A DNA stretch of 64,000 bases. It comes from Candidatus Brennerbacteria bacterium (GTDB lineage: Bacteria > Patescibacteriota > Minisyncoccia > UBA6257 > GWB1-50-10). This document shows positions 10-58,100 of the stretch, piece after piece; the stretch's first letter is position 1; each line of letters starts with the position of its first letter. Made by a program: the position numbers and the translations under genes. The DNA is taken from positions 1,382-65,381 of the forward strand of contig JACPEK010000002.1 in the NCBI GenBank assembly GCA_016183535.1, read 5' to 3'. The notes under the pieces were generated by a model, which saw only the letters and a program-made list of their open reading frames with translations, was not told where the DNA came from and ran no database searches.

Positions 10-84
10 TGCGGGGAAGTGTAACGGTTGCACGTCTGGCTCATAACCAGAAGGCAGTGGGTTCAATTCCCGCCCCCGCAACAA
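10..84 (+). tRNA. tRNA-Met or Ile2 (anticodon CAT)
   Basis: Manual cloverleaf: acceptor TGCGGGG/CCCCGCA, anticodon stem TCTGG/CCAGA with loop CTCATAA, T-arm GTGGG-TTCAATT-CCCGC. No encoded CCA. Position 1 is U1:A72 and there is no U8. Confidence 0.6.
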
Positions 85-85
85 A

Positions 86-1225
86 ATGAGGAAAATAAAT
101 ATAGATTTTCCGGAAGCGCAAGAACTTGGCGCAGAACTTTTAAAACGCACGGATCCCGAAGGACTCCGCCTGGCACGCTTTCTCGCGATGCCGGATCTTT
201 CGCGGAAGGAAGGAAATCCCATTGCGGAGATTGTGAATCGGATATTGGCGAGTCCGTACTTTAAAGATTTAGACCTCATCAAAACGCCCGAGATCGTGCC
301 GGCCTCCGTGAGTTTTGATCTCTTCGATTTTCCCGCCGATCACCCCGCCCGGAGCCCTTCCGACACCTACTACGTGAATCATGAGCGCATCTTGCGCCCT
401 CACACTACCGTGATGTGGTATTACTACCTTCTTGATGAGGAAGTGAAACAACGCATCGCCGCCAACAAACCCGTCGGATGTTTCAGCTTCGGGAAAGTAT
501 ATCGCCGTGACGAGATAGATCGTAATCACATGAACGTGTTCCATCAGATTGACGGGTGGTATTTGGCTCCTCAAGCAGTGAAGACAATAGGCGTGAAAGA
601 GCTCGAAGAGGCACTCGGCGCTATCGCAACGGCGGTGTTCGGGTCGAGTGTGAGATATCGCCTGAACGAGGACACCTTCCCGTACACCCACCCTTCTCGC
701 GAGATGGAGGTGGAGATTAAAGGGAAGTGGGTGGAGGTGGTCGGATGCGGCGTGGTGAAGGGAAGTGTACTCGAAAAACTCGGGGTCGACCCCTCGAACT
801 ACACGGGATGGGCGTTCGGGTTCGGATTGGAGCGGCTCGCGATCGCGAGTATGGAGCTTCCGGATATCCGTCTCTTGTGGTCCGAAGATCCGCGGGTAAC
901 GCGTCAGCTGAAACTGGGGAATGAATACAAGGAAGTGAGTAAATTTCCCCCCATCACGCGCGATATCTCGTTCGTGGTGGGAAAGAATTTCGTGCCGAAC
1001 GATTATTTTGATCTCATCCGCGATATCGGCGGCGATTTAGTCGAAGAGGTGTCGCTTCTTGATAAGTACGAGGATGCCGGTAAGTTCGGCGCCGATAAAG
1101 TAAGCCATACCTATCGGACGGTATATCGCTCGAACGAGCGAACCCTCACCGCGGAGGAAATCAATGCGATACATGAGAACATTACGCGGGAAACGAAAGA
1201 ACGGTTCGGCGCGGAGGTGCGCTGA
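86..1225 (+). CDS. pheS: Phenylalanine--tRNA ligase alpha-type catalytic subunit with a C-terminal FDX-ACB-like anticodon-binding domain (monomeric, mitochondrial-type architecture)
   Basis: Class II motif 3 GWAFGFGLERLAI. C-terminal ~100 aa (FPPITRDISFVV...LLDKYED...KVSHTYRTVYRSNERTLTAEEI) resembles the ferredoxin-fold anticodon-binding domain normally found in PheT or mitochondrial PheRS. Confidence 0.8.
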   Translation: MRKINIDFPEAQELGAELLKRTDPEGLRLARFLAMPDLSRKEGNPIAEIVNRILASPYFKDLDLIKTPEIVPASVSFDLFDFPADHPARSPSDTYYVNHERILRPHTTVMWYYYLLDEEVKQRIAANKPVGCFSFGKVYRRDEIDRNHMNVFHQIDGWYLAPQAVKTIGVKELEEALGAIATAVFGSSVRYRLNEDTFPYTHPSREMEVEIKGKWVEVVGCGVVKGSVLEKLGVDPSNYTGWAFGFGLERLAIASMELPDIRLLWSEDPRVTRQLKLGNEYKEVSKFPPITRDISFVVGKNFVPNDYFDLIRDIGGDLVEEVSLLDKYEDAGKFGADKVSHTYRTVYRSNERTLTAEEINAIHENITRETKERFGAEVR

Positions 1226-1242: not shown

Positions 1243-1677
1243 ATGAAGTCATTCATGAAATTTTTCGACAGGGCGGAGGACAAAATGCGTGGTTGGTTGA
1301 GCCACTATCCGATCCTCTACGGTATCGTCGGCGGGGTCGGCACGGTGCTCATGTGGCGCGGTATCTGGCATACGGCCGATTTCTTTTCGGCGCGCTACGT
1401 GCACGGTGGTATGGAGGCCGGGCCCGGCACGGTAAGCTATCCGTTTTTGTGGGACGGTTTCCTCTCTCTCGTTGTGGGATTTATCATGTTGCTCGCGACC
1501 GGCCTTTTCGTCGCCAGTTTTATCGGTGATCACATCTTGATTTCCGGACTCCGCCGCGAGAAGAAAATTGCGGAGAAGACCGAGGAAGAAGTGGAGGAGG
1601 AAGCACAGAAGCTTGCGAGCATGAAGAACCAACTCGATCGCATCGAAAAGTCTCTCGAAGAGTTGAAGAAAAAATAA
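1243..1677 (+). CDS. Hypothetical membrane protein with a C-terminal charged coiled coil
   Basis: Two predicted TM helices followed by a K/E-rich helical tail. It is tightly packed between pheS and recG. Confidence 0.45.
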   Translation: MKSFMKFFDRAEDKMRGWLSHYPILYGIVGGVGTVLMWRGIWHTADFFSARYVHGGMEAGPGTVSYPFLWDGFLSLVVGFIMLLATGLFVASFIGDHILISGLRREKKIAEKTEEEVEEEAQKLASMKNQLDRIEKSLEELKKK

Positions 1678-4110: not shown

Positions 4111-4230
4111 GGACGGAAAACAGTATATCCGATATACTGGAATCAGTTCAACTTTTGTGGTGAGCAATATCTGTGAATGTGGCTTTTTATTTTGCCGCCC
4201 GCGATTTTTGGGGATACAATCCATTTATAG

Positions 4231-4305
4231 GCCCCTGTGGTGAAATGGATATCACGACTGCCTTCGAAGCAGTTATTGGGGGTTCGAATCCCTCCGGGGG
4301 CACCA
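4231..4305 (+). tRNA. tRNA-Arg (anticodon TCG), CCA encoded
   Basis: GCCCCTG...CGGGGGC acceptor stem, anticodon loop CTTCGAA, T-loop TTCGAAT, 3-prime CACCA. It ends 5 nt before the cca start codon. Confidence 0.75.
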
Positions 4306-4310
4306 CCCAT

Positions 4311-5822
4311 ATGAAATTCACTATTCCGCACGAGGTGAAAACCATTGCGGAGACGCTCAAAAAGAACGGCCACCAGGCGTACTTGGTGGGCGGGTGTCTT
4401 CGTGATCTTCTCCTGAAGCGCGCGCCCAAAGACTGGGACGTGGCGACCAACGCACTACCCGACGAAATACAGAAAATCTTTTCTCGAACCGAAGACGAGA
4501 CCCCGACCGGCAACGGAGGGGCCGGAACCGTGTATGAAAACACGTTTGGCACGGTGGGCGTGAAGACAGAATCCGACGATCCGACGTTGAAGATTGTGGA
4601 GATTACCACCTTTCGTGTCGAAGGGCGTTATACCGATTTGCGACACCCCGATGAGGTGAGGTTTGCAAGGACGATTGAGGAGGATCTTGCCAGGCGCGAC
4701 TTCACGATAAATTCAGTCGCGCTGGAATTACCAATTACCAATTACCAATTACTAAAAATTGTTGATCCTTTCGGCGGCCAAGAGGATTTGAAAAATAAAA
4801 CTATTCGCGCCGTCGGTGATCCCGCGAAGCGCTTCGAAGAAGATGCACTCCGCCTTATGCGCGCGGTGCGGCTTGCCACGGAGCTCGGGTTTGAGATTGA
4901 GGCGAGGACAAAAGAAGCAATCCGTCGGCGCGCGGCGCTTCTCGAGGCGATTGCGAAAGAGCGTATCCGAGACGAGTTTGTAAAACTTATAATGAGCGAC
5001 CGCGCGGCCGAGGGCGTCATAGCGATGGAAGATCTCGGGCTTTTGAGGTTTGTGGCGCCTGAACTCCGCGAGGGGATAGGATGCGGCCAGAACAAGCATC
5101 ATATCTACACCGTGTTCGATCACAACGTGCGCGCCCTGAACTACGCGGCAGAGAAGAAATATTCATTCGAGGTGCGCCTCGCCTCGCTCCTCCACGATGT
5201 AGGGAAGCCGAAAACGAAGCGTGGCGACGGGCCGGACTCCACGTTCTACAACCACGAGGTCGTAGGCGCAAAGATGGCGGCGGTAATTATGGATCGTTTG
5301 CGGTTCGGGAATGATGTTGCGGAGCGCGTGGTGCACCTCGTGCGACACCATCTTTTCTACTACAACGTGGGTGAAGTGTCGGAGGCGGGCGTGCGGCGAT
5401 TTATCGCGCGGGTGGGGCCGGAGTACATTGAGGATCTTCTGAAAATTCGGGAGGCGGATCGCATCGGTTCCGGCGTGCCGAAGGCGTTTCCCTACAAGCT
5501 CCGCCATCTCCTTTTTATGATGGAGAAAGTGAAAAAAGATCCCATCCACCCGAAGATGCTCGCGGTGAAAGGGGACGACATAATGGCGATTCTCGGTATC
5601 CCGCCGGGGCCGAAAATCGGGAAAATTCTTGGGGTGCTTCTCGAAGAAGTGCTCGACGATCCAAAGCACAACGCGCGCGAATACCTTGAGCCCCGCGTAA
5701 AAGAACTCGCCGCGCTGAAAGATGAGGAATTGGAAACTCTTGCGCGTACCGCCCGCGAGAAAAAGAACGAATTCGAAAGCGGACTTGAGGAAGAGATGAA
5801 AAAAAGATACTACGTGAAATGA
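4311..5822 (+). CDS. cca: CCA-adding tRNA nucleotidyltransferase (class II head domain plus HD domain)
   Basis: GGCLRDLLL and DxD nucleotidyltransferase head; HD motif LLHDVGKP. The six-frame ORF starts at 4173 but overlaps the tRNA-Arg gene, so the start was moved to the ATG at 4311 (MKFTIP). Confidence 0.85.
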   Translation: MKFTIPHEVKTIAETLKKNGHQAYLVGGCLRDLLLKRAPKDWDVATNALPDEIQKIFSRTEDETPTGNGGAGTVYENTFGTVGVKTESDDPTLKIVEITTFRVEGRYTDLRHPDEVRFARTIEEDLARRDFTINSVALELPITNYQLLKIVDPFGGQEDLKNKTIRAVGDPAKRFEEDALRLMRAVRLATELGFEIEARTKEAIRRRAALLEAIAKERIRDEFVKLIMSDRAAEGVIAMEDLGLLRFVAPELREGIGCGQNKHHIYTVFDHNVRALNYAAEKKYSFEVRLASLLHDVGKPKTKRGDGPDSTFYNHEVVGAKMAAVIMDRLRFGNDVAERVVHLVRHHLFYYNVGEVSEAGVRRFIARVGPEYIEDLLKIREADRIGSGVPKAFPYKLRHLLFMMEKVKKDPIHPKMLAVKGDDIMAILGIPPGPKIGKILGVLLEEVLDDPKHNAREYLEPRVKELAALKDEELETLARTAREKKNEFESGLEEEMKKRYYVK

Positions 5823-7900: not shown

Positions 7901-9604
7901 ATGACGCGCGATGTGGAACGCCTCAAGGAGAAGCTCGATATTGTCGAGGTGGTGCGCGGTTATCTCCCGCTTCGGCCTGCGGGAAAAAATTTTTTGGCGC
8001 TGTGTCCTTTCCATTCGGAAAAAACCCCCTCGTTCATCGTATCGCCTGATCGGAAGTCATGGCACTGTTTTGGTTGCGGCGCGGGGGGCGACGCGATCTC
8101 CTTCGTGATGCGTTATGAGAATATGGAGTTCCCGGAGGCTCTTAAGTTTCTCGCGGAGAAGGTCGGGCTCACACTTCAGTCGCTCAATCCTGCCCATGAG
8201 CGCGAGTTTGGCGTGCTCTATACACTCCACGACGAGGCGCGTGCGTTCTATGAACGGGAACTCGTGAAATCCGAGGAGGCGAAACAGTATCTGAAATCGC
8301 GTGGATTGACAGGCGAAACCGCGAAGGCGTTCGGACTCGGATTTGCGCCAGGCGGCGAAACTCTTACGCTCCATCTGATCAAAAAAGGGTTCGCGGTAGA
8401 TGATATCGTCCGCGCAGGATTTGCGGTGAAGTCCGGCGGACTCCACCGTGATCGGTTCGAAAACCGCGTAATGTTTCCGCTCATGAACGCGGTGGGACGC
8501 GTGGTGGCGTTTACGGGTCGTATCCTTCCTTCAGGTGATAAGGAAGGGATAGGGAAATATGTGAATAGCCCCGAAACCCCTATTTTCTCCAAATCCAAAA
8601 TTCTCTACGGCCTGCATCTTACCAAGCACGAGATTGCGAAAAAACGCGAGGTGGTGTTTGTGGAGGGGCAAATGGATTTTCTGATGAGCTGGCAGGCGGG
8701 AATAAAGAACGTGGTGGCGGTATCGGGTACGGCCTTGACCGCTCATCACCTTGAGCGTTTACGGCGCATCGCGGACGCGGTAACGCTTTCTTTCGACAGC
8801 GACGAAGCGGGTCTCCGCGCGCTTGAGCGGGCGATGGATATTTTCCACGCATTTGATTTCCACGTGAAAGCTATGGATCTTGCGGGCGCAAAAGACCCCG
8901 CCGAGCTGGCGGTAAAAAATCCCTCGGCGCTTGTCGCCGCCGCGGCGCAGGCAGTGCCCGCTTTTCGCCTTCTCTTTGCTCATTATTTTCCCTCTCGCCC
9001 CTCGGAAAAAGGTGAGGGGCGCGACACGGCTGGTATGAAGCGCGTCATCCGCGCACTTTTGGGAAAGGTAAAGAAACTTCCGAGCGCGGTGGAACAGATG
9101 GCGACGATAAAAGAGCTTGCCGTCGCCTCTGATCTCTCCGAAACGGCGCTCCTCGAGGAATTCGAGTCTGTTCCGGTGGATGCGAAACCGGTGCCGGTTG
9201 CCGACCTGACGCCCGAACGGGAAGCGGAAGGGAGAGTGGAGATGCTTGCAAACCGCCTCGGCACAATCGCCTTTGCGGATCAGAATTTTTTTGCTATAAT
9301 TGCGGCGAACAAAGAATGGCTTCCGGACTATGTGCGCCGGGCCGTTGAAGAGCCGGCTTCCCAGTCGGCACACGCGTTCGAGATGCAGGCGTCGTATCTC
9401 GCCGCGAAGCTTCCGAAAGAAGCGCTTGATCGCGAATGTAATGAATTAGTGAAGCAACTCAAGATCGCCGTTTTGAAGCGGCGGCAGGAAAGCGCGCGGC
9501 GAGACGTGCGTCTCGCCGAAACCCGCGGCGATGAGAAAACGCTCGAGGAAGCGATGAAACATTTCCAGTCGCTCGCCGCGGAATTGCACGCGCTTGTTCT
9601 CTAG
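7901..9604 (+). CDS. dnaG: DNA primase
   Basis: Zn-finger [11 protein letters not shown]...[22 protein letters not shown]. It sits immediately upstream of rpoD in the conserved dnaG-rpoD arrangement. Confidence 0.92.
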
Positions 9605-9612
9605 TTTTTACC

Positions 9613-10872
9613 ATGAAGAAAAAAACCGCTGATAAAAAGAAAAAACTTGTAGCGAGACGCTCACCTTCCGGCACGCGGGTTCGCGCATTGCGCGGAGCAA
9701 AACCCGCGGCGCACCGTCCGGCGCGGAAAGATCCGCGGAATGCCGGCACAAAAAAAAACAAAAAGCAATCGTCGAAAAAGATTTCTCCCGAGGTTCTCAA
9801 AGAGTATGAAGCGCATCTCGACGAACTGGTGCGGCGCGGGAGGGGACGCGGGTTTGTCACGGACGCCGAGGTGTTGAACTATTTTCCCCATATCGAACAA
9901 CATCTCGGTTTTCTCGAGCGTGTTTACGAGCGGCTCGAGAAGGAGGGAATTAAGGTGCAGGAACCCGCGGGGCTTGTCACGAAGAAAGATCGTGAGGAAA
10001 TAAGCCTCGAGGAGCTTCGCAAGGCGACGGATATGGATGATATTCTACCCGATGCCGTACAGATGTATCTCAAGGAAATCGGGAAGACCGCACTCCTTAC
10101 GTCGAAGGAAGAAAAGGAACTCGCGAAGCGCATTGAGGCGGGCGACGAAACCGCGCGTCAAAAGCTTATCCAGGCCAACCTCCGGTTGGTGGTGAGTATC
10201 GCGAAGCGCTATGTGAACCGCTCGCCGCACCTTTCGATCCTCGACTTGGTGCAGGAGGGGAATATCGGGCTCTCGCGCGCGGTCGATAAGTTCGACTACC
10301 GCCGAGGATTCAAGTTTTCCACCTACGCCACCTGGTGGATCCGACAGGCGGTTACCCGCGCCTTAGCCGACTACTCCCGCACCATCCGCATTCCGGTTCA
10401 TATGGTGGAGACGATTACGAAGTATGCCCAGACAAAGCGGCGTCTGATGCAGGAGCTTGGCCGCGATCCGCTTCCCGAAGAAATTGCGACGGAGCTTGGC
10501 ATTGATGTGGAGAAGGTGCACTACATTCAGAAAATTTCCCAGGAAGTCATCTCGCTTGAAACTCCGATCGGTGATGACGATGACGACTCCATACTCTCGG
10601 ACTTTATTCCCGACGAGCGCGGCATGACCCCGGATCAACTTGCCTCGCACGCGCTCCTGCGCGACCAGATCAGGGAAATTCTCGCGGATTTGACCGAGCG
10701 GGAACAGAAAATTCTCTCGATGCGTTTTGGGCTTGAGGACAATATCCCGCACACCTTGGAGGAAGTGGGAAAAATCTTCGGCGTGACGCGCGAGCGCATA
10801 CGGCAGATTGAGGCGAAGGCGCTCGAAAAAATCAGAAGCCATGAAAAGGTGAAGAAACTCGAGGGATATTAA
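9613..10872 (+). CDS. rpoD: RNA polymerase primary sigma factor (sigma-70) with a K/R-rich N-terminal extension
   Basis: Region 2 [16 protein letters not shown] and [14 protein letters not shown], region 4 [22 protein letters not shown]. Confidence 0.93.
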
Positions 10873-12617
10873 TGAACGGCAACGACATTCGCGCCGAGTT
10901 TCTGAAGTTTTTTGCCGCGCGAGGGCATGCGGTGGTGCCCTCCTCTTCGCTCGTGCCGGATGATCCGTCGGTGTTGTTCACCACCGCCGGAATGCAGCAG
11001 TTCAAGAGGTACTACACCGGCGAGCTCGACGCGAAGAAGGATTTCAAGAGTCTCAATGCCGCGTCCGTACAGAAATGTTTTCGTACCTCCGATATCGACG
11101 AGGTGGGGGACGAGTCGCACCTCACGTTTTTCGAGATGCTCGGGAACTTTTCGTTCGGAGAGTATTTTAAAGAAGGAGCCATCCAATACGGGTACGAATT
11201 CATCACAAAGGTCATGAAGCTTCCCATCGACTACGTGACGGTATTTGATCCGGATAAGGTGCCGGAAGGCGATTGGCGAAAAGGGGTGCCGCGCGACGAC
11301 GAATCGCGCGTCATCTGGGAAAAACTCGGCGTGAAAGATGTGCGAGGCGACGGAATAGATGTGTTTTGGGGCCCTACCGGCGCCGAAGGTCCGTGCGGTC
11401 CGACGACCGAAATTTATGTGAAAAGCGCTGCGGGAAAAAGTCTGGAGGTGTGGAATATTGTATTCAACGAGTTCTACCGCGATACAGAGAAAAAGTTAAC
11501 AAAACTCCAGACGCGCGGCGTGGATACCGGCATGGGCTTGGAGCGGCTTGCGATGGTGTCGCAGGGCGTGCCGACGATTTTTGAGACCGACCTCTTCACA
11601 CCGCTCATGAAGCTTTTACCTTCCAACCTATCCGAAAGGACCCGGCGCATTCTCGCGGACCACGTGCGCGGTATCGCGTTCCTATTATCCGATGGCGTGC
11701 GGCCGTCAAACAAGGAAGCGGGCTACGTGCTTCGGCGGCTTATGCGACGCCTCATCACACACCTCCACATTGCTGGTAATCCTATTGATCCAGCGCATCT
11801 TTATTGGGAGGTTCGTGAGCATTATGAAAAATTTTATCCTAAGCTTAACACTCAAATCGTTCTCGAAGAGTTTACCGTTGAATGGGCGCGATTTGAAAAA
11901 ACGCTTGCGGTGGGTTTGAAAGAGCTTGCAAAAGTTGATTCGCTCGATGCAAAGCGCGCATTCACCCTCTACGAGAGCTACGGATTGCCGTACGAAATCT
12001 TAAAGGAGCTTGGCGGTGAGAAGGCGAAGAGACTAAACCGTGAGGAGTTCGACGAGGAATTTGCGAAGCACCAAGAGATATCCCGCGCGGGATCGGTGAA
12101 GAAGTTCGGTGGCCACGGGCTCATTTTGAACACCGGAGAGCTGAAGGCGGGGGATGAAGAGGAGTTGAAAAAAATGACGCGTCTCCACACCGCGACCCAC
12201 TTGCTTCAGAAGGCGCTCCGCGAAGTGCTGGGGTCCGAGGTCGCCCAGCGCGGGTCGGACATCACGCCCGAGCGTACCCGTTTCGATTTCTCGTTCCCGC
12301 GGAAGGTGGAGAAGGAGGAGCTGGAGGAGGCGGAGGAGCTGGTGAATAAAAAGATAAAAGAGGACTTGCCGGTGAACTTCAAGGAAATGTCCAAGGAAGA
12401 AGCGGAAAAGACCGGCGCGCTGTATTTCTTCAAGGAGAAATACCCCAACCGCGTAAAGGTGTATTACGTGGGCCACTCGCTTGAAGATGCATGGAGTAAG
12501 GAATTCTGTGGCGGCCCGCACGTCATGCATACAGGAGAAATCGGTCGTATAAAGATTACAAAAGAAAAGGCGGTCGGGGTGGGAGTGCGGAGAATTCGAG
12601 CGATACTCGTGGAATGA
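10872..12617 (+). CDS. alaS: Alanine--tRNA ligase, short form (catalytic, tRNA-recognition and editing domains; no C-Ala domain)
   Basis: N-terminal FFAARGH...SSLVP...FTTAGMQQFK; editing-domain HTATHLL and CGGPHV motifs. At 581 aa it is shorter than canonical ~870-aa AlaRS. Confidence 0.85.
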   Translation: MNGNDIRAEFLKFFAARGHAVVPSSSLVPDDPSVLFTTAGMQQFKRYYTGELDAKKDFKSLNAASVQKCFRTSDIDEVGDESHLTFFEMLGNFSFGEYFKEGAIQYGYEFITKVMKLPIDYVTVFDPDKVPEGDWRKGVPRDDESRVIWEKLGVKDVRGDGIDVFWGPTGAEGPCGPTTEIYVKSAAGKSLEVWNIVFNEFYRDTEKKLTKLQTRGVDTGMGLERLAMVSQGVPTIFETDLFTPLMKLLPSNLSERTRRILADHVRGIAFLLSDGVRPSNKEAGYVLRRLMRRLITHLHIAGNPIDPAHLYWEVREHYEKFYPKLNTQIVLEEFTVEWARFEKTLAVGLKELAKVDSLDAKRAFTLYESYGLPYEILKELGGEKAKRLNREEFDEEFAKHQEISRAGSVKKFGGHGLILNTGELKAGDEEELKKMTRLHTATHLLQKALREVLGSEVAQRGSDITPERTRFDFSFPRKVEKEELEEAEELVNKKIKEDLPVNFKEMSKEEAEKTGALYFFKEKYPNRVKVYYVGHSLEDAWSKEFCGGPHVMHTGEIGRIKITKEKAVGVGVRRIRAILVE

Positions 12618-12777: not shown

Positions 12778-14769
12778 ATGGAAGACGCACCGGAGAAAAA
12801 CGTGGCCTATTTCGGCCGTGTGGACTTTCGAAATCAAAATAGGCTTTTTGGCATCAAGCGCATCGACCGGCGCCAGCATATGTATGTGATCGGGAAAACC
12901 GGCACCGGGAAAAGCGCGATGCTTCACAACCTTATCGTCCAGGATATCGCGAACGGTGAGGGGGTGTGTGTGGTGGATCCACACGGCGAGCTTGTGGAAT
13001 CGATCCTCACGAAGATTCCGAAGGAGCGGGTCGCCGACGTGGTGTATTTCAACCCTGCGGACAGCGAATATCCAATGGGATTCAACGTGCTCGAACTCCC
13101 CGACCCGAAATACAAACATCTTGTGGCGTCCGGTCTCATGGGGATTTTCACGAAGATTTGGGCGGGTACGTGGTCCGCGCGGATGGAGTACATTTTGAAC
13201 AACGCGGTCCTGGCGCTCCTTGATACGCCGAGCTCGACGCTTCTCGGCGTGAGCCGCATTCTCGTCGACAAGGAATACCGCCAACAAATTCTCGCGAACG
13301 TGAAGGATCCGGTGGTGCGGTCGTTCTGGCTCAACGAATACGAGGAGTGGCGTGACCAGTTCAGAAACGAGGCCATCGCCCCGATCCAAAACAAAGTGGG
13401 GCAATTTCTCTCGACCGCGATGATTCGGAACGTGGTGGGTCAGCCGCGGAGCACCATCGACATTTTCAAGATCATGAACGAGGGGAAAATTTTTCTCGTG
13501 AACGTGTCAAAGGGCCGCATCGGGGAGGACAACTCGGCGCTCTTGGGCGCCATGCTCATCACAAAAATCCAACTCGCCGCGATGGAGCGCGTGCGCATTT
13601 CCGAGGATGAGCGCGTGGATTTCTACCTCTACGTGGACGAGTTCCAGAATTTTGCGACCGATTCGTTCGCGGGCATCCTTTCCGAGGCGCGGAAATACCG
13701 CCTGAATCTTGTACTTGCGCACCAGTATATCGGTCAGCTGGTTACGGATATTTCCACAAAGGTGCGCGACGCGGTGTTCGGGAATGTGGGGACGATGATC
13801 GTGTTTCGCGTGGGAGCCGCCGATGCGGAATTTTTGGAGCAGGAATTCACGCCGGAACTCACGCAGGAAGATATTGTAAACCTTCCGAACTACACGATTT
13901 ATCTCAAGCTTATGGTGGACGGCATTACCTCGCGGCCGTTTTCCGCGCGCACCCTCCCGCCATTCAAAGTGGAAACTTCGGAAAGCGCCGCGGAGATGGT
14001 AATGATCGAATCGCGCCGGCGTTATGCGAAACCGCGGTATGCGGTGGAGGGAGAAATTACGCGGTGGGCGGGTGGCATGGTGGAAAATAATGGCGCGGCG
14101 GATGGATCCGACGAAAATCACTTTGGGGGCGCGGGGGGAGGTGAGGCGGGAAAATTCGAGGCGGTATGTTCCTCGTGCGGGAAAATCACCACCGTGCCGT
14201 TCAAGCCGCTCCCAGGGCGTCCCGTCTATTGCCAGGATTGTCTGAAAAAAATAAAAACCGGCGAGCTCCCGCCGGTGCGAGTGCCACGCCTGCCCGACCA
14301 GCAAGCGGGTGCGCTTTCGGAACGGGAAGAAACCGGCTCCATGAGCCATCTCGCAAAACTGGGAATAGAGTTCGGGGCTAATGTCCGTGGCGCCGAGAAT
14401 GCTCGTCATAAGCGTGAGGGGGAACATGCGCCGACACCGCGTCGGTTCACAGAAATAAGACCGCGTCCCGCGCCAGTCAACAAAAAGAATTTTGAAAAAC
14501 GCGAAACGCCTCCGCCTCTGCCGGTCGTAGCGGGCCTTAATGAAAAAAATCGCCAAGAGCACCAAGAAAGGCCGCGTCATCGCCCTTCCATCCTCCGCGA
14601 TGATCCTGCCATCCCCGTCTCTTCGGAGGAGGAGCAGGAACATAAACTTCGCTTGAGCGAGCTCCAACCGACGGAACTGAAGGAAACAAAAAAGCCGTCG
14701 TGGGACGACGGCGAGCCGGACATCAAGGGGTTGCAGGATGCGCTCCGCGACGCGCTCAAAAATATTTAA
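12778..14769 (+). CDS. TraG/VirD4/TrwB-like (T4SS coupling-protein-like) P-loop ATPase with a C-terminal CxxC-x17-CxxC zinc ribbon and a long disordered K/E/P-rich tail
   Basis: Walker A IGKTGTGKS, VVDPHGE, Walker B YLYVDEFQNF, AHQYIGQL. CSSCGK...YCQDC ribbon near aa 460. The last ~200 aa are low complexity. TATAAT lies 7 nt upstream of the ATG. Confidence 0.6.
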   Translation: MEDAPEKNVAYFGRVDFRNQNRLFGIKRIDRRQHMYVIGKTGTGKSAMLHNLIVQDIANGEGVCVVDPHGELVESILTKIPKERVADVVYFNPADSEYPMGFNVLELPDPKYKHLVASGLMGIFTKIWAGTWSARMEYILNNAVLALLDTPSSTLLGVSRILVDKEYRQQILANVKDPVVRSFWLNEYEEWRDQFRNEAIAPIQNKVGQFLSTAMIRNVVGQPRSTIDIFKIMNEGKIFLVNVSKGRIGEDNSALLGAMLITKIQLAAMERVRISEDERVDFYLYVDEFQNFATDSFAGILSEARKYRLNLVLAHQYIGQLVTDISTKVRDAVFGNVGTMIVFRVGAADAEFLEQEFTPELTQEDIVNLPNYTIYLKLMVDGITSRPFSARTLPPFKVETSESAAEMVMIESRRRYAKPRYAVEGEITRWAGGMVENNGAADGSDENHFGGAGGGEAGKFEAVCSSCGKITTVPFKPLPGRPVYCQDCLKKIKTGELPPVRVPRLPDQQAGALSEREETGSMSHLAKLGIEFGANVRGAENARHKREGEHAPTPRRFTEIRPRPAPVNKKNFEKRETPPPLPVVAGLNEKNRQEHQERPRHRPSILRDDPAIPVSSEEEQEHKLRLSELQPTELKETKKPSWDDGEPDIKGLQDALRDALKNI

Positions 14770-47195: not shown

Positions 47196-47909
47196 TTAAT
47201 GAAGCGCTTCCTTGATTTGTTCGCGGACTTCTTTGCTGGCACGCAGGACGGGATTTTTCGAGGCGACCGCTATGACTCTTCCTTTTGCGTCGAAAACGTA
47301 ATCGTCCAGATACACGCCATTGCACACCTGACATTGCGGTATCGTGTTCGAGAGGGCGAGAGGTTTATGCGGATCCATATGCCCCTGTTGGAGCGCTGTT
47401 GTTTTGCCGGGCTCAAGAAAATTTGGCTTGTGTTCTTGTGAGCCGCACGTGGCGCAACGGAACCCGTACACTACTTTAAGTTGTGCAAAATCTTTTGCGG
47501 CAATACGCCCCGCGCGTTTCAGCGATTTGAAGAGAAACGTAGGCTTCGGACTTTCGGTAGTGATGAGAATATGGTAGCCGCTCGGCACCACTTCTTTTTT
47601 GTTCTGATATTTGTCGCCTTTATTAAGCACATACCATCCGTCGCTCGCCAGATGACGAACTTGCTGGTCTTTGCCCGCTTTCGGATTTACGCTCGCTACA
47701 AATGACGAAATGGTGTCTTTGTGGACGAGCGCGCCCTTGTTCTTCCGCAGGAAAATGAGCCACAAGGCTTTTATACTGTTCCTCGCCGGGAACTTCACGC
47801 TGTACGGCGAGAGGTGGGTTTTGTGTTCTGCTTCGAGTTTTCGGTACCAACTTTCTATTTCATCGGGGGACATATACACATGCCCTCCTTGCTTATCCAG
47901 TTTTTTCAT
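47196..47909 (-). CDS. HNH (His-Me finger) endonuclease, putative Type II restriction enzyme
   Basis: CATCGS...QQGHMDPHKP...NTIPQCQVCN (CxxC - H-x-DPH - N - CxxC). It overlaps the upstream methyltransferase gene by 17 nt in an AT-rich island. Confidence 0.6.
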   Translation of the reverse strand: MKKLDKQGGHVYMSPDEIESWYRKLEAEHKTHLSPYSVKFPARNSIKALWLIFLRKNKGALVHKDTISSFVASVNPKAGKDQQVRHLASDGWYVLNKGDKYQNKKEVVPSGYHILITTESPKPTFLFKSLKRAGRIAAKDFAQLKVVYGFRCATCGSQEHKPNFLEPGKTTALQQGHMDPHKPLALSNTIPQCQVCNGVYLDDYVFDAKGRVIAVASKNPVLRASKEVREQIKEALH

Positions 47910-49431
47910 AGTTTTTTAAACGCTTCTCCGCAATGGCGAAGTATTTTTTCTCTATTTCAAAACCGATGAATTTCCTATTTTTTCTCAAGGCGGCGACTCC
48001 TGTAGTGCCGCTTCCCATGAAGGGGTCGAAAACCGTTTGTTTCGGGGAGGTGAATATCTCAATCAGCCGCTCCATAAGGTCTATCGGTTTTATAGTCATG
48101 TGGTCAATGAGTTTTCTTGAGTTCGGTTTTTTATAGTTCAGCACGGTCGTTTGTTGCGATTCGGGAAAATCCGTTTGGATAAGTCCCGTGCGCCATGTGA
48201 GCCAGTTTTCGACGAATGTCCCTTCTTTCGGCTTGTGCGCGAGCAGAATCGCCTCGAATTTCGGTCGTAGTTGAGGGGTTTTTCTGTTTTCAAGGCTCTT
48301 GATAATCTGCTCTTTTTCGTGCGCGGGGATCTTCATCTTTTTCACGAAGTGGTTTTGAGTGAACGCTTTTCCTTGCCCGCCGTTATGCTCCCATATCAGC
48401 ATATCCCGTATTTCAAAACCGGCGTTTTCGGCCGCGAGCGCGAGACGGTGGAAGAGTCTTCCCTGCGAAAATGAGATCATAAATCCTCCGGGCTTGAGCA
48501 CTCGTAACGCTTCGTGGAAAACTTTGGTGAAAAATTTTTCGAGCTTTTTTCCTTGTTCAGGATCGAATTTCATGCCTACCGGGAGGCCTTGTATCGCTCC
48601 GGCCCTTGCCGATTTTTGTTTCAGTTTGGCATCCGACCACTCGTTGTCCATCCCATCAAGAAAATAAGGGGGATCGGTGGCGATAAAATCTACGCTGTTC
48701 GTGTCAATACTTTTGAATGCGTCCAAGCAGTCAGCGAGATAAATTGAGACGTTACGCCAAGTTTTTTTATCAACGATCTTTTTCCCGCTCGTTTTCTCGG
48801 CGACGCGTTCCGGTGTTATTGCGGGCGCGGATTTTTTGTTTCGGATAACGTCGACAAAAACACCTTGGATTGCAAAGTCCTTTTTTCCCCACTTGACGAT
48901 GATCGGCTCGAAGTTTTTGTTCGCGGGCTGAAGGCGAATTTGGTTCCTCTCCTTGTAGTAAGTTTTCAAAGTAGTGTCATAGTTATCGATGAGCGCGACC
49001 ACCTTCTGCCCGTTCTCCGCGACCGATTGATGGCGAACCAATATGATGTCGCTGTCATTGATATTTTCTTCGACCATACTCTCGCCTTGCACGCGCAACG
49101 CGTACACGTTGCCCGCATTCGGAATCCGGTTCGCGGGGACGGCGATCGTTTCGGTGGGTGTATCGAAGAGCGTGAGCGGTTGTCCGGCAACGATGGTGCC
49201 GAGTAGGGGAATTTGAACCATGGAGGTTGCTTCAAATATCTGCACCCCTCTTCGTTGGTTTTTGTTCAGCTGAAGGTATCCCGCGTCCTCCAAATTTTGG
49301 AGATGTTCATGCACAGTGCCGACCGCTCGCTTGAGGCCGGCGGCTATCTCGGGGATGGAAGGGGAGTATCCGCGCCTCCGCGCGTATTTAGTAACAAAGT
49401 CGAGCACCTCTTTTTTCTTATCGGTGAGCAT
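47893..49431 (-). CDS. Fusion protein: full-length LexA-like repressor (wHTH plus S24 autopeptidase) joined to a beta-class N6A/N4C DNA methyltransferase
   Basis: aa 1-205 form a LexA domain (MLTDKKKEVLDFV...PSIPEIAAGL; IPLLGTIVAGQP; GESM Ser and KTYY Lys). From aa ~225 onward it is an MTase (SVDFIATDPPYF motif IV, FDPFMGSGTT motif I). It is a single 512-codon ORF with no internal stop. Confidence 0.65.
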   Translation of the reverse strand: MLTDKKKEVLDFVTKYARRRGYSPSIPEIAAGLKRAVGTVHEHLQNLEDAGYLQLNKNQRRGVQIFEATSMVQIPLLGTIVAGQPLTLFDTPTETIAVPANRIPNAGNVYALRVQGESMVEENINDSDIILVRHQSVAENGQKVVALIDNYDTTLKTYYKERNQIRLQPANKNFEPIIVKWGKKDFAIQGVFVDVIRNKKSAPAITPERVAEKTSGKKIVDKKTWRNVSIYLADCLDAFKSIDTNSVDFIATDPPYFLDGMDNEWSDAKLKQKSARAGAIQGLPVGMKFDPEQGKKLEKFFTKVFHEALRVLKPGGFMISFSQGRLFHRLALAAENAGFEIRDMLIWEHNGGQGKAFTQNHFVKKMKIPAHEKEQIIKSLENRKTPQLRPKFEAILLAHKPKEGTFVENWLTWRTGLIQTDFPESQQTTVLNYKKPNSRKLIDHMTIKPIDLMERLIEIFTSPKQTVFDPFMGSGTTGVAALRKNRKFIGFEIEKKYFAIAEKRLKNYEKTG

Positions 49432-55190: not shown

Positions 55191-58100
55191 ATGCGTAGGG
55201 CCACCGTATCACTCATTGTACTTGCGGTTACGATAGGAATTGTTTTTCCTGCTCGGGCACTCGCGTACGATCAAGAAACTACTCACGCCGCACTCACGGA
55301 TGAGGCGGTGGATTTCTACAACCTTCTCTATCCGGACGAACCACTCACCGCCGAGCAAAAAGAATGGATTGTAGAGGGAAGCATCAACGAGGATGAATTT
55401 CCGCGGTGGCTGAACCACTTCTATGACCCGATAAGGAAAATTGGATGGAATGGTGAACATCAAGGGATCGCGAGCGCCGGGGCAACGCGCGCGGTAGCGT
55501 ATGCAACATTAGTGCCGATCGGCGGCGCAGTTCTCCCCACGACAGCGTGGGTGCACGATCACGCCATGCAAGCCGGCCCCTACGCGAATATGGGAGGCGA
55601 CCGCACGTGGGAGCAGGCGCTTAAATACTACGTGGATGGAAACAAGGAAGAAGCATACCGGACGCTCGGCCACGCCCTCCATCTTCTTCAAGACATGACG
55701 GTACCCGACCACAGCCGGAATGATTCGCATGCGCCGCTTGCCGGTGACGACGGATCGCCTCTTGAGGATTATCTGGAAAAATGGAATCGCGGGAATATCG
55801 GGGAGTTGGATTTGGTCGGTAATCTTACTGCACAAAATACGCGGCCGCCCTCGTTCAATAAAATCGAGGACTATTTTACAAACACGGCAGAGTACAGCAA
55901 TAAACATTTCTTCTCAAAGGACACTATAATTAGTGATGTATACACTTTTCCAGAAATAGTCAAGGATAATGGAAATTTTGGATATGGAATTGATGAGAAC
56001 GGAAATGAATTTCCACTTGCGGGTGTTGATTTTATAACCGATGAAAGTAAAAAAGTTTCGAAAATATTTTTAATTGGGAACAAAAAAGAGTACTACCCCA
56101 TCCTCAACGCATATTTCTCCCGCCTCGCGCCAAAAGCAGTGCTTTATGGCGCAGGTGTCATCGAACTGTTTGAAAAGCAGGCGCGCGACGCGCTTGAGTT
56201 CAAGGATATCGCTCCCCATGCTACGCGTTTGGATTTATCGCGCGTAACTTCACTCTTCTCATTTTCGCTTGGCGCATTGGGAAAAAATATTGTAACCGGT
56301 GTTGCTTCTTTACCCTCTTTGATTGGTCGAGTATTTTCTACCGCGGTGGGTGGCGTAAAAAACGCCGCGAGCGATGTGGCGGCGTTCACGCAGAATATTA
56401 TCTCGAAGATTCAGAATAATCCTAAGCGTGCCGCGGAGATCGCGACGGAAAGCGCGGAGCAAATAGAAAATCTCCTCGCGGGGGATCCGACGGACGGCGT
56501 CGTGATCGACACCGAGGAAGAACGGGCACAACTCAAGGAGCTCCAGAATCAACTCGACGATATCGCGGATCAAGTAGACGACTTCACGTATCAAGTGGAT
56601 AAGGCGGCGGGGAACGAGGGAAGGGGAGGAGCGCAGGAAACCGCTGGTGGCGCTGACGAAACGGAGGACGCGCAGAAGAAGACTGGTAGTGTGGACAAAA
56701 GCGTTGATACGAAAGAGAAAACGAATAACACGGGAAGTAAGAAAAATATTTCAAGTGGGGGAGGCGGTGGTGTGGCGGCGAGTGCACCGAATCTCGCGAT
56801 TACCGAGATTATGTATAACGCGTCCGGCACCGACGACGGGCGCGAATGGATTGAAGTGAGGAATGATGGGGCCTCCTCCGCAAGTTTTGATGACGTGCGG
56901 TTTCTTGAGGGTGGCACAAATCATCGGCTCGTGTTTGCGCGTGGCGCCGCGGCGCTCGCGGCGGGCGCCTATGCGATTATCACCGATGATGCTGATCGGT
57001 TTATCATTGATTATCCATCATTCGCGGGGAGTCTCTTCGATAGTTCGTTCTCCCTCTCGAACGACGGCGAGACGCTCGCGCTCACGTTCAATGGCAGTAC
57101 CTTTCATTCGGTTTCATACAGCTCGAGCACGGGCGCGCATGGCGACGGGAACTCTCTCCAATTGATCGGGGCGGCATGGCAAGCGGCGACACCGACGCCG
57201 GGTGTGGTGAATGTCGCGGGGTCATCCGGCGGCGGATCTTCAGGTGAGGGTTCTTTAAGCGCCACTTCGACCGCAACCTCCTCGCCGCCCACGTCAGGGT
57301 TCGGCGCCTCCCACGTGGTGATAAGTGAGGTACAGGTGGCGGGCGCGGATGCGGGCGACGAGTTTATCGAACTTTACAATCCGACGGATCAGGCGGTGGA
57401 TATGTCAGGCTGGTCGCTCCAGTACGCGGGCGGCAACACCGTCGTTACGTCTTCCACAGTAAGCAAGAAGAATTTTCTCGCGACGAGTTCCATTGTGGCG
57501 AAAAGCTTTTACCTTGTGGGGCGCGGACTCGACGAAGCAGGCGGAGACGGCTATCGCGGGAGCGTCGTATCTGATATGGCCCACCGCACGTTTTCGCTTT
57601 CGGGCGCCTCGGCGGGTGCCAAGCTTTTCCTTGTGCCAAGCTCTACATTAATAGAAAGCGAAACCGATCCGATTATTCTCGACACGCTCGATTACACCTC
57701 GACCACCGTGGTGGACGCGGGTCAAAGTTTCGAGCGGCGCGCGTGGAGCAATAATCTTTGCCACTCGGCGATCGCGGGCGGCACGGGAGAATTTCTAGGG
57801 AACGGGTGCGATACTGGTACCTTTGCGGAAGACTTTGAGATACGGGCGGCGGCGAATCCACAAAACAGCGGGAGCTTCAAAGAACCACGCACGGCGCCCT
57901 CGGTGCTCCAGGCCCCGACGGGGACTACGGCACTCGCCGTCTATAACCGCAATGCGATCGCCATCAACTTTGCATGGCAAGCCTCAAGTGATTTCGAGGG
58001 TGCAACCTCCACCGTTACCTACCGCGTTACGAATGCGTCAACCTCCGCGATTATTTTCAATACGACCTCAACATCGTTTTCGAAACAAATAACCGAGGTG

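What the first reader, a model, noticed from the sequence alone, without database searches (positions are those of the whole stretch)
86..1225. Monomeric mitochondrial-type phenylalanyl-tRNA synthetase (PheS fused to an FDX-ACB anticodon-binding domain)
The 379-aa protein has only a short N-terminal region, a standard class II catalytic core, and a ~100-aa C-terminal domain whose motifs (FPPITRDISFVV, LLDKYED, TYRTVYRSNERTLTAEEI) match the ferredoxin-fold anticodon-binding domain normally at the C-terminus of bacterial PheT or of monomeric mitochondrial PheRS. No pheT follows it; the next genes are a membrane protein and recG. If the genome lacks pheT, this organism uses a minimal single-chain PheRS without the PheT editing domain, which has implications for Tyr/Phe discrimination. 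The gene is also tightly coupled to a tRNA(CAT) 4 nt upstream.
Basis: partly seen in the sequence, partly recalled or inferred. Interest (0 to 1): 0.55.

Follow-up and report, generated by a model that had tools for sequence, protein, structure and literature searches.

The report
Single-chain PheRS in a CPR bacterium
This gene of a tiny groundwater bacterium (Candidatus Brennerbacteria) encodes a one-piece phenylalanyl-tRNA synthetase built like the mitochondrial enzyme, and the same gene is widespread in related bacteria, which suggests that a large bacterial group charges tRNA-Phe without the usual second subunit and its proofreading site.

Summary
ORF 86..1225 (+) encodes 379 aa: a class II PheS catalytic core (aa 60-274, Pfam E 1e-53) fused to an FDX-ACB anticodon-binding domain (aa 285-379, E 4e-24). 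It has no PheS N-terminal coiled coil. A tRNA(CAT) gene ends 3-4 nt before the ATG. The AlphaFold model (pLDDT 90) best matches human mitochondrial PheRS (TM 0.73).

The protein is identical to a "hypothetical protein" of a Candidatus Brennerbacteria MAG. Relatives at 59-86% identity occur in at least 525 GTDB species genomes, all named ones Parcubacteria-type Patescibacteria.

Phe-pocket and ATP motifs are invariant in the family. They are altered in the bacterial paralogue family SrmL.

The CPR clade lies outside the eukaryotic and viral PheRS-M clade.

In 13 of 82 related loci a mini-gene for only the PheT B2 domain sits directly upstream, or is fused. No editing (B3/4), B5 or B6/7 sequence appears in 1.24 Mb of related loci or in the window.

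Best reading: this is the housekeeping, editing-free, single-chain PheRS of this lineage. Absence of pheT from the whole genome could not be tested here. I found no published description. Interest is moderate.

The parts
86..1225 (+). Gene for a 379-aa single-chain PheRS-like protein (coordinates include the stop codon). It is identical to NCBI 'hypothetical protein HYU81_00610 [Candidatus Brennerbacteria bacterium]'.
   Evidence: ORF. The 100% identical database protein is P0001. The AlphaFold model has pLDDT 90 and pTM 0.84.
86..262 (+). Short helical N-terminal region (aa 1-59). It contains the invariant 'MPDLSR...P' segment, which aligns with the E. coli PheS segment 'LPGR..G..HP' that precedes motif 1. 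There is no coiled-coil tRNA-binding arm.
   Evidence: No PF02912 hit. Helices at 9-20, 24-34 and 45-54 in the model. Invariant residues D23, R28, R31 and M35-R40. Alignment with E. coli PheS.
263..907 (+). Class II PheS catalytic core (aa 60-274). Its key segments are H106-T-T108; motif 2 G136..R140..F152-H-Q-I-D-G157 (nt 491-556); the Phe-pocket segment F198-P-Y-T201..P203-S204 (nt 677-697); and motif 3 G241-W-A243-F-G-F-G-L-E-R250 (nt 806-835).
   Evidence: Pfam PF01409 E 1.2e-53. All listed residues are invariant in 50 family members. Alignment to E. coli PheS and to mitochondrial PheRS.
938..1222 (+). C-terminal ferredoxin-fold anticodon-binding domain (FDX-ACB, equivalent to PheT domain B8), aa 285-379.
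   Evidence: Pfam PF03147 positions 1-94 of 94, E 4.2e-24. It matches pheT_bact positions 698-798 and E. coli PheT residues 630-791 by tblastn.
10..82 (+). tRNA(CAT) gene that abuts the start codon. It has a U1-A72 pair and only two G-C pairs at the bottom of the anticodon stem, so it is not initiator-like. It is probably co-transcribed with the PheRS gene. After tRNA 3' processing the mRNA would have almost no leader.
   Evidence: ARAGORN. The same abutment, 0-12 nt, occurs in close relatives L002-L006, L011, L012 and L082. Co-transcription and leaderless translation are inferences.
1243..1677 (+). Conserved downstream neighbour: a 144-aa protein with two hydrophobic segments and a charged C-terminal helix, with no Pfam match. 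It is listed as context; no functional link to the PheRS gene is shown.
   Evidence: ORF. No Pfam family. A syntenic small gene is present in L002-L006 and L010 at 47-66% identity.

Best explanation
The gene encodes a functional single-chain phenylalanyl-tRNA synthetase of the PheRS-M architecture: the alpha-subunit catalytic module fused to the beta-subunit B8 anticodon-binding domain. It most likely serves as the housekeeping PheRS of this Brennerbacteria genome and of Parcubacteria-type Patescibacteria in general.

The proposed mechanism follows human mitochondrial PheRS. The core activates Phe with ATP using class II motifs 2 and 3 and an aromatic pocket (F198, Y200, T201, A243). The hinged FDX-ACB domain reads the GAA anticodon. 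One polypeptide charges one tRNA-Phe.

The protein has no B3/B4 domain, so Tyr-tRNA-Phe and m-Tyr-tRNA-Phe cannot be edited in cis. Fidelity would rest on active-site discrimination alone.

In some sister lineages a vestigial beta subunit survives as a B2 (OB-fold tRNA-binding) mini-protein, encoded immediately upstream or fused to the N-terminus. It presumably adds tRNA affinity.

What is shown: the architecture, the predicted fold, motif conservation, the phylogenetic spread, synteny, and the B2 remnants. What is inferred: catalytic activity, the monomeric state, loss of pheT from the whole genome, and loss of editing.
For: Evidence for the architecture and fold:
- Pfam finds the PheS core plus a full-length FDX-ACB domain.
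- The best PDB relative by sequence is human mitochondrial PheRS, E 6e-60 over both domains.
- The AlphaFold model (pLDDT 90) superposes on 3CMQ and 5MGH with TM 0.73. Alpha subunits of (alpha-beta)2 enzymes give about 0.54.

Evidence for PheRS function:
- The PheRS-specific residues are invariant in 50 family members: H-T-T, R140, FHQ-x-D-G, F-P-Y-T-x-P-S and GWAFGFGLER.
- The bacterial paralogue family SrmL has HPYT-x-NG and GLA[LM]G..DR at the same positions.
- Tyr at the Tt-Phe260 position is the normal residue of cytosolic eukaryotic PheRS, and Thr at the Val261 position matches human mitochondrial PheRS (PMC3275996).

Evidence for a housekeeping role:
- At least 6,844 90%-identity clusters share words with the query.
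They include Nomura-, Giovannoni-, Yanofsky-, Zambryski-, Vogel-, Niyogi- and Doudnabacteria, Paceibacterota and Minisyncoccia.
- The gene is more conserved than its neighbour recG in the same genome pairs: 86% against 71%, and 79% against 52-56%.
- It sits among core genes in a conserved order.

Evidence for loss of a full beta subunit:
- Stand-alone proteins of 128-181 aa best match pheT_bact positions 39-152, the B2 domain, at E 1e-33.
- These genes lie directly upstream of the PheRS gene in 13 of 82 loci, and 505-aa B2-PheRS fusions exist.
- E. coli PheT tblastn against 87 loci (1.24 Mb) and against the window hits only B2 and B8 pieces, never B3/4, B5 or B6/7.
Against: - Absence of canonical pheS and pheT from the rest of this MAG, or from any complete relative, was not tested. 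The tools give at most about 21 kb around a gene.
- The window protein scores just below the curated cutoffs of both pheS_mito (245.6 against 258.35) and SrmL (245.8 against 300). NCBI therefore left it as 'hypothetical'.
- Proteins of the same architecture exist in bacterial lineages that are not genome-reduced and presumably also carry canonical PheST (not checked): P0125 from an Oligoflexia MAG and the SrmL 'mystery ligase' family. The architecture alone does not prove a housekeeping role.
- Motif 2 has Asp156 where canonical and mitochondrial enzymes have Glu, and the FPF motif reads FPY. Effects on specificity are unknown.
- No B2 gene occurs near the gene in this window or in its closest relatives.
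- No biochemical data exist.
Confidence: 0.7

Rival explanations
1. The protein is an auxiliary second PheRS, or a PheRS-like paralogue that still uses Phe. In this reading it coexists with a canonical (alpha-beta)2 PheST encoded elsewhere in the genome, for example as a stress-specific or analogue-resistant isoenzyme.
For: Whole-genome absence of pheT was not tested. Bacterial lineages that are not genome-reduced also carry proteins of this architecture, such as Oligoflexia P0125 and SrmL; whether those genomes also hold PheST was not checked. Mukai et al. 2017 (PMC5370408) state that many CPR bacteria have a PheRS beta subunit, although their example is not a Parcubacterium.
Against: Redundant aaRS genes are unlikely in genomes of 0.6-1 Mb. 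The family is very widespread and strongly conserved. Remnant B2-only 'beta' genes and B2 fusions at the locus point to dismantling of pheT rather than coexistence with it. No B3/4, B5 or B6/7 sequence appears in 1.24 Mb of related loci.
Confidence: 0.2
2. The protein is a member of the SrmL-type 'PheS-related mystery ligase' group, with a substrate other than Phe and tRNA-Phe.
For: The NCBIfam SrmL model gives the top score, 245.8 bits, marginally above pheS_mito. In the NJ tree the CPR clade groups weakly (50-58%) with SrmL and other bacterial sequences.
Against: The score is well below the SrmL cutoff of 300, while true SrmL (P0245) scores 387. The SrmL pocket residues (HPYT-NG, GLALG, DR) differ from those of PheRS, whereas the CPR family keeps the PheRS set. 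The CPR representative P0121 passes the pheS_mito cutoff.
Confidence: 0.06
3. The gene is a recent transfer from a eukaryote (a mitochondrial FARS2-like gene) or from a giant virus or jumbo phage, or it is a contaminant contig.
For: The best solved relative is human mitochondrial PheRS. Closely related short PheRS-M genes occur on 45 IMG/VR contigs, including jumbo-phage-sized and giant-virus contigs.
Against: The CPR clade has 100% bootstrap support and lies outside the eukaryote and virus clade, which has 93% support. The gene is embedded in conserved CPR core synteny with recG, the CCA-adding enzyme and tRNAs. GC content is uniform across the window. Orthologues occur across many Parcubacteria lineages.
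Confidence: 0.03

Closest known systems
Mitochondrial/organellar monomeric PheRS (PheRS-M; human FARS2, yeast MSF1; TIGR00469; PDB 3CMQ, 3TUP)
   Same: The two-module architecture is the same: an alpha-subunit catalytic module plus a B8/FDX-ACB domain. Both lack the coiled coil, the editing domain and the B1-B7 domains. The sequence match spans both domains (E 6e-60). The predicted fold matches the closed form with TM 0.73. Thr at the Val261 position and the GWAFG-x-GLERL motif 3 are shared.
   Different: The gene is bacterial, chromosomal and part of the core genome. It lacks the insertion in the core that splits eukaryotic matches into two stretches. It has FPY instead of FPF and FHQ-I-D instead of FHQ-x-E. 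It falls outside the 93%-supported eukaryote and virus clade. It scores just under the TIGR00469 cutoff. Some relatives add a B2 domain in trans or in cis.
Canonical bacterial (alpha-beta)2 PheRS (PheS TIGR00468 and PheT TIGR00472; for example E. coli 3PCO, T. thermophilus 1PYS)
   Same: The catalytic core is homologous (126 bits to M. tuberculosis PheS). The C-terminal domain is homologous to PheT B8. The pocket and ATP motifs are shared.
   Different: There is no N-terminal coiled coil, no adjacent pheT, and no B1, B3/4 (editing), B5 or B6/7 domains. The protein scores 156.9 against the PheS cutoff of 237.45. The review PMC3275996 states that the heterotetramer is conserved in all known prokaryotes.
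SrmL, 'PheS-related mystery ligase' (NCBIfam NF051887)
   Same: It is a bacterial protein with the same core plus FDX-ACB layout and a similar length. The model aligns over aa 52-370 of the window protein.
   Different: The window protein scores below the cutoff (245.8 against 300). The SrmL Phe-pocket and motif 3 residues are changed while the CPR family keeps the PheRS residues. SrmL forms a separate clade with 100% support.
Editing-defective PheRS of Mycoplasma and other host-restricted bacteria (Li et al. 2011 and Melnikov et al. 2018, as cited in PMC10057733 and PMC7373986)
   Same: Both are reduced-genome bacteria that appear to have given up PheRS post-transfer editing.
   Different: Those organisms keep a full PheT with a mutated editing site. 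Here the whole beta subunit appears to be gone, or reduced to the B2 domain.
Stand-alone PheT-B2-like tRNA-binding proteins (YtpR NF045760, TapR NF045867, Trbp111/CsaA type)
   Same: The mini-proteins next to the CPR PheRS gene in sister lineages are OB-fold PF01588 domains.
   Different: They match PheT B2 (116 bits) better than YtpR (87 bits, below its cutoff of 100). They are encoded beside, or fused to, the single-chain PheRS. None is found in this window.

Membership tests
Monomeric PheRS-M (mitochondrial-type PheRS, TIGR00469) | Class II PheS-type catalytic module with motifs 1-3 and the Phe pocket | tested here: met
   PF01409 E 1.2e-53. The motif and pocket residues are invariant in the family.
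Monomeric PheRS-M (mitochondrial-type PheRS, TIGR00469) | FDX-ACB (B8) anticodon-binding domain fused to the C-terminus of the same chain | tested here: met
   PF03147 matched over its full length, E 4.2e-24. The AlphaFold model shows a ferredoxin-like beta-alpha-beta-beta-alpha domain at aa 290-374.
Monomeric PheRS-M (mitochondrial-type PheRS, TIGR00469) | No N-terminal coiled coil, and no editing, B5 or catalytic-like (CLM, B6/7) domains | tested here: met
   Pfam finds no other domain above its gathering cutoff at E<=0.1; the only extra hit is a sub-threshold match to the PheT CLM family PF17759 (13.7 bits against 22.4), as expected because CLM is homologous to the catalytic core. The protein has only 379 aa.
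Monomeric PheRS-M (mitochondrial-type PheRS, TIGR00469) | Whole-chain fold like solved mitochondrial PheRS | tested here: met
   Foldseek top hits are 5MGH and 3CMQ, E about 1e-35, TM 0.73.
Monomeric PheRS-M (mitochondrial-type PheRS, TIGR00469) | Scores above the curated TIGR00469 cutoff | tested here: not met
   245.6 bits against a cutoff of 258.35. The 61%-identical family representative P0121 does pass, at 264.3.
Monomeric PheRS-M (mitochondrial-type PheRS, TIGR00469) | Phylogenetic membership of the mitochondrial clade | tested here: not met
   In an NJ tree rooted with E. coli PheS core plus PheT B8, the eukaryote and virus clade has 93% support and excludes the CPR clade, which has 100% support. 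This is a distance method only.
Monomeric PheRS-M (mitochondrial-type PheRS, TIGR00469) | Acts as a monomer and charges tRNA-Phe without a beta subunit | not testable with these tools
   This needs biochemistry: size-exclusion chromatography with light scattering (SEC-MALS) and aminoacylation assays.
Monomeric PheRS-M (mitochondrial-type PheRS, TIGR00469) | No canonical PheS/PheT in the same translation compartment or genome | tested here: inconclusive
   None was found in the 64-kb window or in 87 related loci totalling 1.24 Mb. B2-only remnants occur in relatives. Whole genomes could not be scanned.
Canonical bacterial PheS alpha subunit (TIGR00468) | Score above the cutoff, an N-terminal coiled coil, and a partner pheT (usually adjacent) | tested here: not met
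   156.9 bits against a cutoff of 237.45. There is no PF02912 hit. No pheT lies in the window.
SrmL PheS-related mystery ligase (NF051887) | Score above the curated cutoff and SrmL-type pocket residues | tested here: not met
   245.8 bits against a cutoff of 300. True SrmL has HPYT-x-NG and GLA[LM]G..DR, whereas this family has FPYT-x-PS and GWAFG..ER.

The most novel reading that the evidence does not exclude
Parcubacteria-type Patescibacteria as a group have replaced the bacterial (alpha-beta)2 PheRS with a single-chain enzyme. PheT was dismantled: B8 moved onto the alpha chain, B2 survives in some lineages as a roughly 140-aa vestigial 'beta subunit' or as an N-terminal fusion, and the editing domain was lost. 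A major bacterial radiation would then translate Phe codons with no cis-editing of Tyr or m-Tyr. The PheRS-M architecture would also be an old bacterial invention, shared with jumbo phages and giant viruses, rather than something that arose in eukaryotes. That would make the origin of mitochondrial PheRS directly testable.
Probability: 0.55. Interest if true: 0.7.

Novelty: new member of a known kind. Interest (0 to 1): 0.5.

Why it matters
Reviews state that bacterial PheRS is always an (alpha-beta)2 heterotetramer, and that the single-chain form is unique to organelles and is the only monomeric class II synthetase (PMC3275996; AARS Online lists PheRS-M under FARS2).

A widespread, strongly conserved single-chain PheRS in free-standing bacterial genomes would change that picture in four ways:
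- It would give a natural bacterial example of complete loss of PheRS editing, going beyond the point mutations seen in Mycoplasma.
- It would explain why pheS and pheT marker genes may be reported as missing in Patescibacteria completeness estimates. JGI labels the two pieces 'alpha chain' and 'beta chain', and NCBI calls this one hypothetical.
- It would offer small, tractable enzymes for studying how a minimal PheRS recognises tRNA-Phe.
- It would provide bacterial and viral outgroups for working out where mitochondrial PheRS came from.

Tried and rejected
- **Whole-genome test for pheT.** This was not possible.
- **Domain-only protein searches.** The word-indexed protein search does not return long proteins for a domain-only query. 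The 505-aa protein that supplied the B2 query was itself not listed. A CPR PheT could therefore not be retrieved without a CPR PheT seed, and none was available.
- **Literature.** Ten searches found nothing on SrmL, on a monomeric PheRS in CPR/Patescibacteria, or on pheT loss in Parcubacteria. Melnikov et al. 2018 (PNAS) is not held.
- **First NJ tree.** It had no true outgroup, because the sequences I took for canonical PheS were truncated monomeric ones. I redid it with an E. coli PheS core plus PheT B8 outgroup. One bootstrap run timed out.
- **tRNA coupling as a family-wide feature.** Rejected. The tRNA(CAT) abutment is confined to the window and its close relatives, although tRNA-Met and tRNA-Asp genes are often within 1.5 kb upstream.
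- **B2 mini-gene in this window or its closest relatives.** None was found.
- **Eukaryotic contamination or recent transfer.** Rejected on tree position, synteny and uniform GC content.
- **Not attempted.** Residue-level checks of anticodon contacts in the ACB domain.
Full report
**Observation**

The ORF at 86..1225 (+) is real and encodes 379 aa. It starts at the first possible start codon after an upstream stop.

Pfam finds the class II PheS core (PF01409, aa 60-274, E 1.2e-53). It also finds the ferredoxin-fold anticodon-binding domain over its whole length (PF03147, aa 285-379, E 4.2e-24). Nothing else appears at E<=0.1 apart from a sub-threshold match to the PheT catalytic-like module, so the PheS N-terminal coiled coil is absent.

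ARAGORN places a tRNA(CAT) gene at 10..82 (+). Its discriminator base is at 81, which leaves four bases before the ATG.

Downstream are a 144-aa protein with two hydrophobic segments and, on the other strand, recG. tblastn with E. coli PheT against the whole window hits only the FDX-ACB part of this ORF. The ORF itself has no second copy in the window.

**Identity and context**

The protein is 100% identical to NCBI 'hypothetical protein HYU81_00610 [Candidatus Brennerbacteria bacterium]'. The window is an ordinary CPR core-genome fragment. It carries DnaG, sigma-70, AlaRS, a class IIb synthetase, EF-G, EF-Tu, ribosomal protein L2, SecY, adenylate kinase, Map, TopA and DprA, and its GC content is uniform.

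**What it resembles**

The best solved relative by sequence is human mitochondrial PheRS (E about 6e-60, aligned through both domains). Alpha subunits of bacterial heterotetramers match only the core, and PheT chains match only the last 100 residues.

An AlphaFold2 model built from 50 family members has pLDDT 90 and pTM 0.84. Foldseek against the PDB ranks human mitochondrial PheRS first (5MGH, 3CMQ; TM 0.73). The tRNA-bound open form 3TUP and all alpha subunits score lower, about 0.54-0.59.

NCBIfam gives near-equal scores to two single-chain models. SrmL, the 'PheS-related mystery ligase', scores 245.8 against a cutoff of 300. pheS_mito scores 245.6 against a cutoff of 258.35. The protein is far below the cutoff for canonical PheS (156.9 against 237.45). 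That is presumably why the NCBI record names it only 'hypothetical protein'.

**How widespread it is**

The word-indexed protein search scored 6,844 clusters at E<=0.001. The best 120 are 70-100% identical and come from Patescibacteria, Minisyncoccia, Brenner- and Doudnabacteria.

The best 80 (59-79% identity) are from Nomura-, Giovannoni-, Yanofsky-, Zambryski-, Vogel-, Niyogi- and Doudnabacteria, Paceibacterota, Parcubacteria and Minisyncoccia MAGs. They include contigs of 681, 420, 318 and 312 kb.

In the same genome pairs the gene is more conserved than recG (86% against 71%; 79% against 52-56%). It is at least as conserved as the CCA-adding enzyme in those closest pairs (86% against 82%; 79% against 67-69%), though not in more distant ones. 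The order PheRS, small membrane protein, recG, CCA enzyme is kept in close relatives.

**Is it a PheRS?**

In a 50-sequence family alignment the following are invariant:
- H106-T-T108
- motif 2: R140, D142, H148, F152-H-Q-I-D-G157
- the pocket segment: F198-P-Y-T201-x-P-S204-x-E206
- motif 3: G241-W-A-F-G-F-G-L-E-R250

Aligned with E. coli PheS and with eukaryotic mitochondrial enzymes, these are the PheRS residues, with three conservative differences:
- H-T-T in place of H-T-S
- FPY in place of FPF
- Asp156 in place of Glu

According to PMC3275996, Tyr at the Tt-Phe260 position is the invariant residue of eukaryotic cytosolic PheRS, and Thr at the Val261 position is what human mitochondrial PheRS has. 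The Ala that limits para-substituted substrates (E. coli A294) is kept as A243.

True SrmL sequences (P0245 scores 387 bits) instead have HPYT-x-NG and GLA[LM]G..DR at these positions. The CPR family therefore keeps a Phe pocket that the 'mystery ligase' has changed.

**Phylogenetic position**

HMMER against 1.84 billion cluster representatives found only 230 clusters at E<=1e-30. Most full-length sequences among the best 150 have the core plus FDX-ACB layout, and those lacking the FDX-ACB domain proved to be truncated copies.

I built an NJ tree with 100 bootstraps, rooted with E. coli PheS core plus PheT B8. It shows:
- The CPR clade has 100% support.
- A clade of eukaryotic mitochondrial sequences (Salpingoeca, Schizosaccharomyces, Branchiostoma, Schistocerca) plus short metagenomic sequences has 93% support and excludes the CPR clade.
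- The CPR clade groups only weakly (50-58%) with an Oligoflexia protein, two unnamed sequences and SrmL.

The gene is therefore mitochondrial-like in architecture but is not a member of the mitochondrial clade, and it is not a recent transfer from eukaryotes. The tree uses a distance method with a single outgroup, so deep branching remains unresolved.

**The beta subunit**

Three of the top 120 relatives are about 505 aa long and carry an N-terminal PF01588 domain. Searching with that domain returned at least 120 stand-alone proteins of 128-181 aa from Patescibacteria. JGI names them 'PheRS beta chain'.

Their best NCBIfam match is pheT_bact positions 39-152, the B2 domain (E 1e-33). This is better than the matches to YtpR, TapR, MetRS C-terminal or CsaA models.

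Many lie on the same contigs as the single-chain PheRS. One example is the adjacent locus tags NTX98_00440 and NTX98_00445. In L007 the B2 gene (9392-9829) sits directly upstream of the PheRS gene (10001-11143).

Across 82 non-redundant loci, 13 have this upstream B2 gene or fusion. tblastn with E. coli PheT against 87 loci (1.24 Mb) hits only B8, inside the gene, and B2, upstream of it. It never hits B3/4, B5 or B6/7.

This pattern looks like a dismantled pheT. It is the strongest indirect evidence that these lineages lack a full beta subunit and hence lack cis-editing. Neither the window nor its closest relatives has the B2 gene nearby.

**Limits**

I could not scan the rest of this MAG or any complete relative for pheS and pheT. 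The zero count in 1.24 Mb is weak on its own, since only one or two hits would be expected by chance. No CPR PheT seed could be obtained.

Mukai et al. 2017 note that many CPR bacteria have a PheRS beta subunit, often lacking B2. Their example is not from Parcubacteria, which is compatible with a lineage-specific replacement.

The ten literature searches found no description of a bacterial housekeeping single-chain PheRS. Reviews state that the heterotetramer is conserved in all known prokaryotes and that the monomer is mitochondrial.

**tRNA coupling**

The tRNA(CAT) has a U1-A72 pair and only two G-C pairs at the base of the anticodon stem, so it is not initiator-like. The start codon follows it by 0-12 nt in the window and in L002-L006, L011, L012 and L082 only.

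More loosely, tRNA-Met(CAT) and tRNA-Asp(GTC) genes lie within 1.5 kb upstream in many Parcubacteria loci. No Shine-Dalgarno-like sequence is visible in the last bases of the tRNA. Co-transcription followed by tRNA processing would leave a nearly leaderless mRNA. This is an inference.

**Verdict**

The most likely reading (about 0.7) is a housekeeping, editing-free, single-chain PheRS that characterises Parcubacteria-type CPR bacteria. The main alternative (about 0.2) is a second PheRS alongside an undetected canonical enzyme.

It is a new, apparently unreported bacterial member of a known enzyme kind. Interest is moderate, and would be higher if genome-wide absence of pheT is confirmed.

Noticed in passing
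L007 9392-9829; also L013, L014, L018, L020, L030, L036, L050, L055, L059, L072, L086; proteins P0284-P0403; fused forms P0062, P0100, P0113: Stand-alone mini-proteins of about 140 aa consist only of the PheT B2 (OB-fold tRNA_bind) domain. They are encoded directly upstream of the single-chain PheRS gene, or fused to its N-terminus, in Doudnabacteria and other Patescibacteria. They look like a vestigial beta subunit.
   Followed up: partly
L091-L135 (IMG/VR contigs); P0136 context in L089: PheRS-M-like genes of 340-360 aa cluster with eukaryotic mitochondrial PheRS (93% NJ bootstrap). They occur on 45 viral contigs, including jumbo-phage-sized contigs of 200-530 kb and giant-virus (GVMAG) contigs. 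One metagenomic copy sits next to a PcfJ-like gene.
   Followed up: partly
window 47893-49431 (-): One 512-aa ORF combines a LexA DNA-binding domain, an S24 peptidase (LexA autocleavage) domain and an N6/N4 DNA methyltransferase domain. This is an unusual repressor-methylase fusion.
   Followed up: no
window 10872-12617 (+): The AlaRS has only 581 aa. It has the class IIc core at aa 5-412 and tRNA_SAD at aa 528-575, which is close to the C-terminus. It gave no Pfam match beyond these two domains, so it may lack the C-terminal (C-Ala) region and may have a shortened editing region.
   Followed up: no
window 10-82, and 82 related loci (L002-L088): tRNA-Met(CAT) genes (27 cases) and tRNA-Asp(GTC) genes (17 cases) lie within 1.5 kb upstream of the PheRS gene across Parcubacteria. 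In the window and a few close relatives the tRNA(CAT) ends 0-12 nt before the start codon, which implies a nearly leaderless mRNA after tRNA processing.
   Followed up: partly
window 4173-5822 (+) and tRNA-Arg(TCG) 4231-4305: The longest ORF for the CCA-adding enzyme (GTG at 4173) overlaps a same-strand tRNA-Arg gene. The real start is probably the ATG at 4308, so this gene also begins 2 nt after a tRNA gene ends.
   Followed up: no
window 55191-59615 (+): A 1,474-aa protein whose only Pfam match is to lamin-tail domains. It is followed by a PIF1-like helicase (59617-61020) and a DUF559/MTES_1575 endonuclease-like protein (61693-62439).
   Followed up: no
window 12778-14769 (+): A TrwB/VirD4-like type IV coupling ATPase with a treble-clef zinc finger lies among core genes, between the AlaRS gene and a tRNA 2-thiouridylase (MnmA-type, PF03054) gene.
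   Followed up: no
L059 (Candidatus Binatia MAG contig, 4.5 kb) and P0401 (Limnocylindria MAG): A CPR-type PheRS and B2 genes appear on short contigs binned into non-CPR MAGs. These are probably mis-binned Patescibacteria contigs.
   Followed up: no
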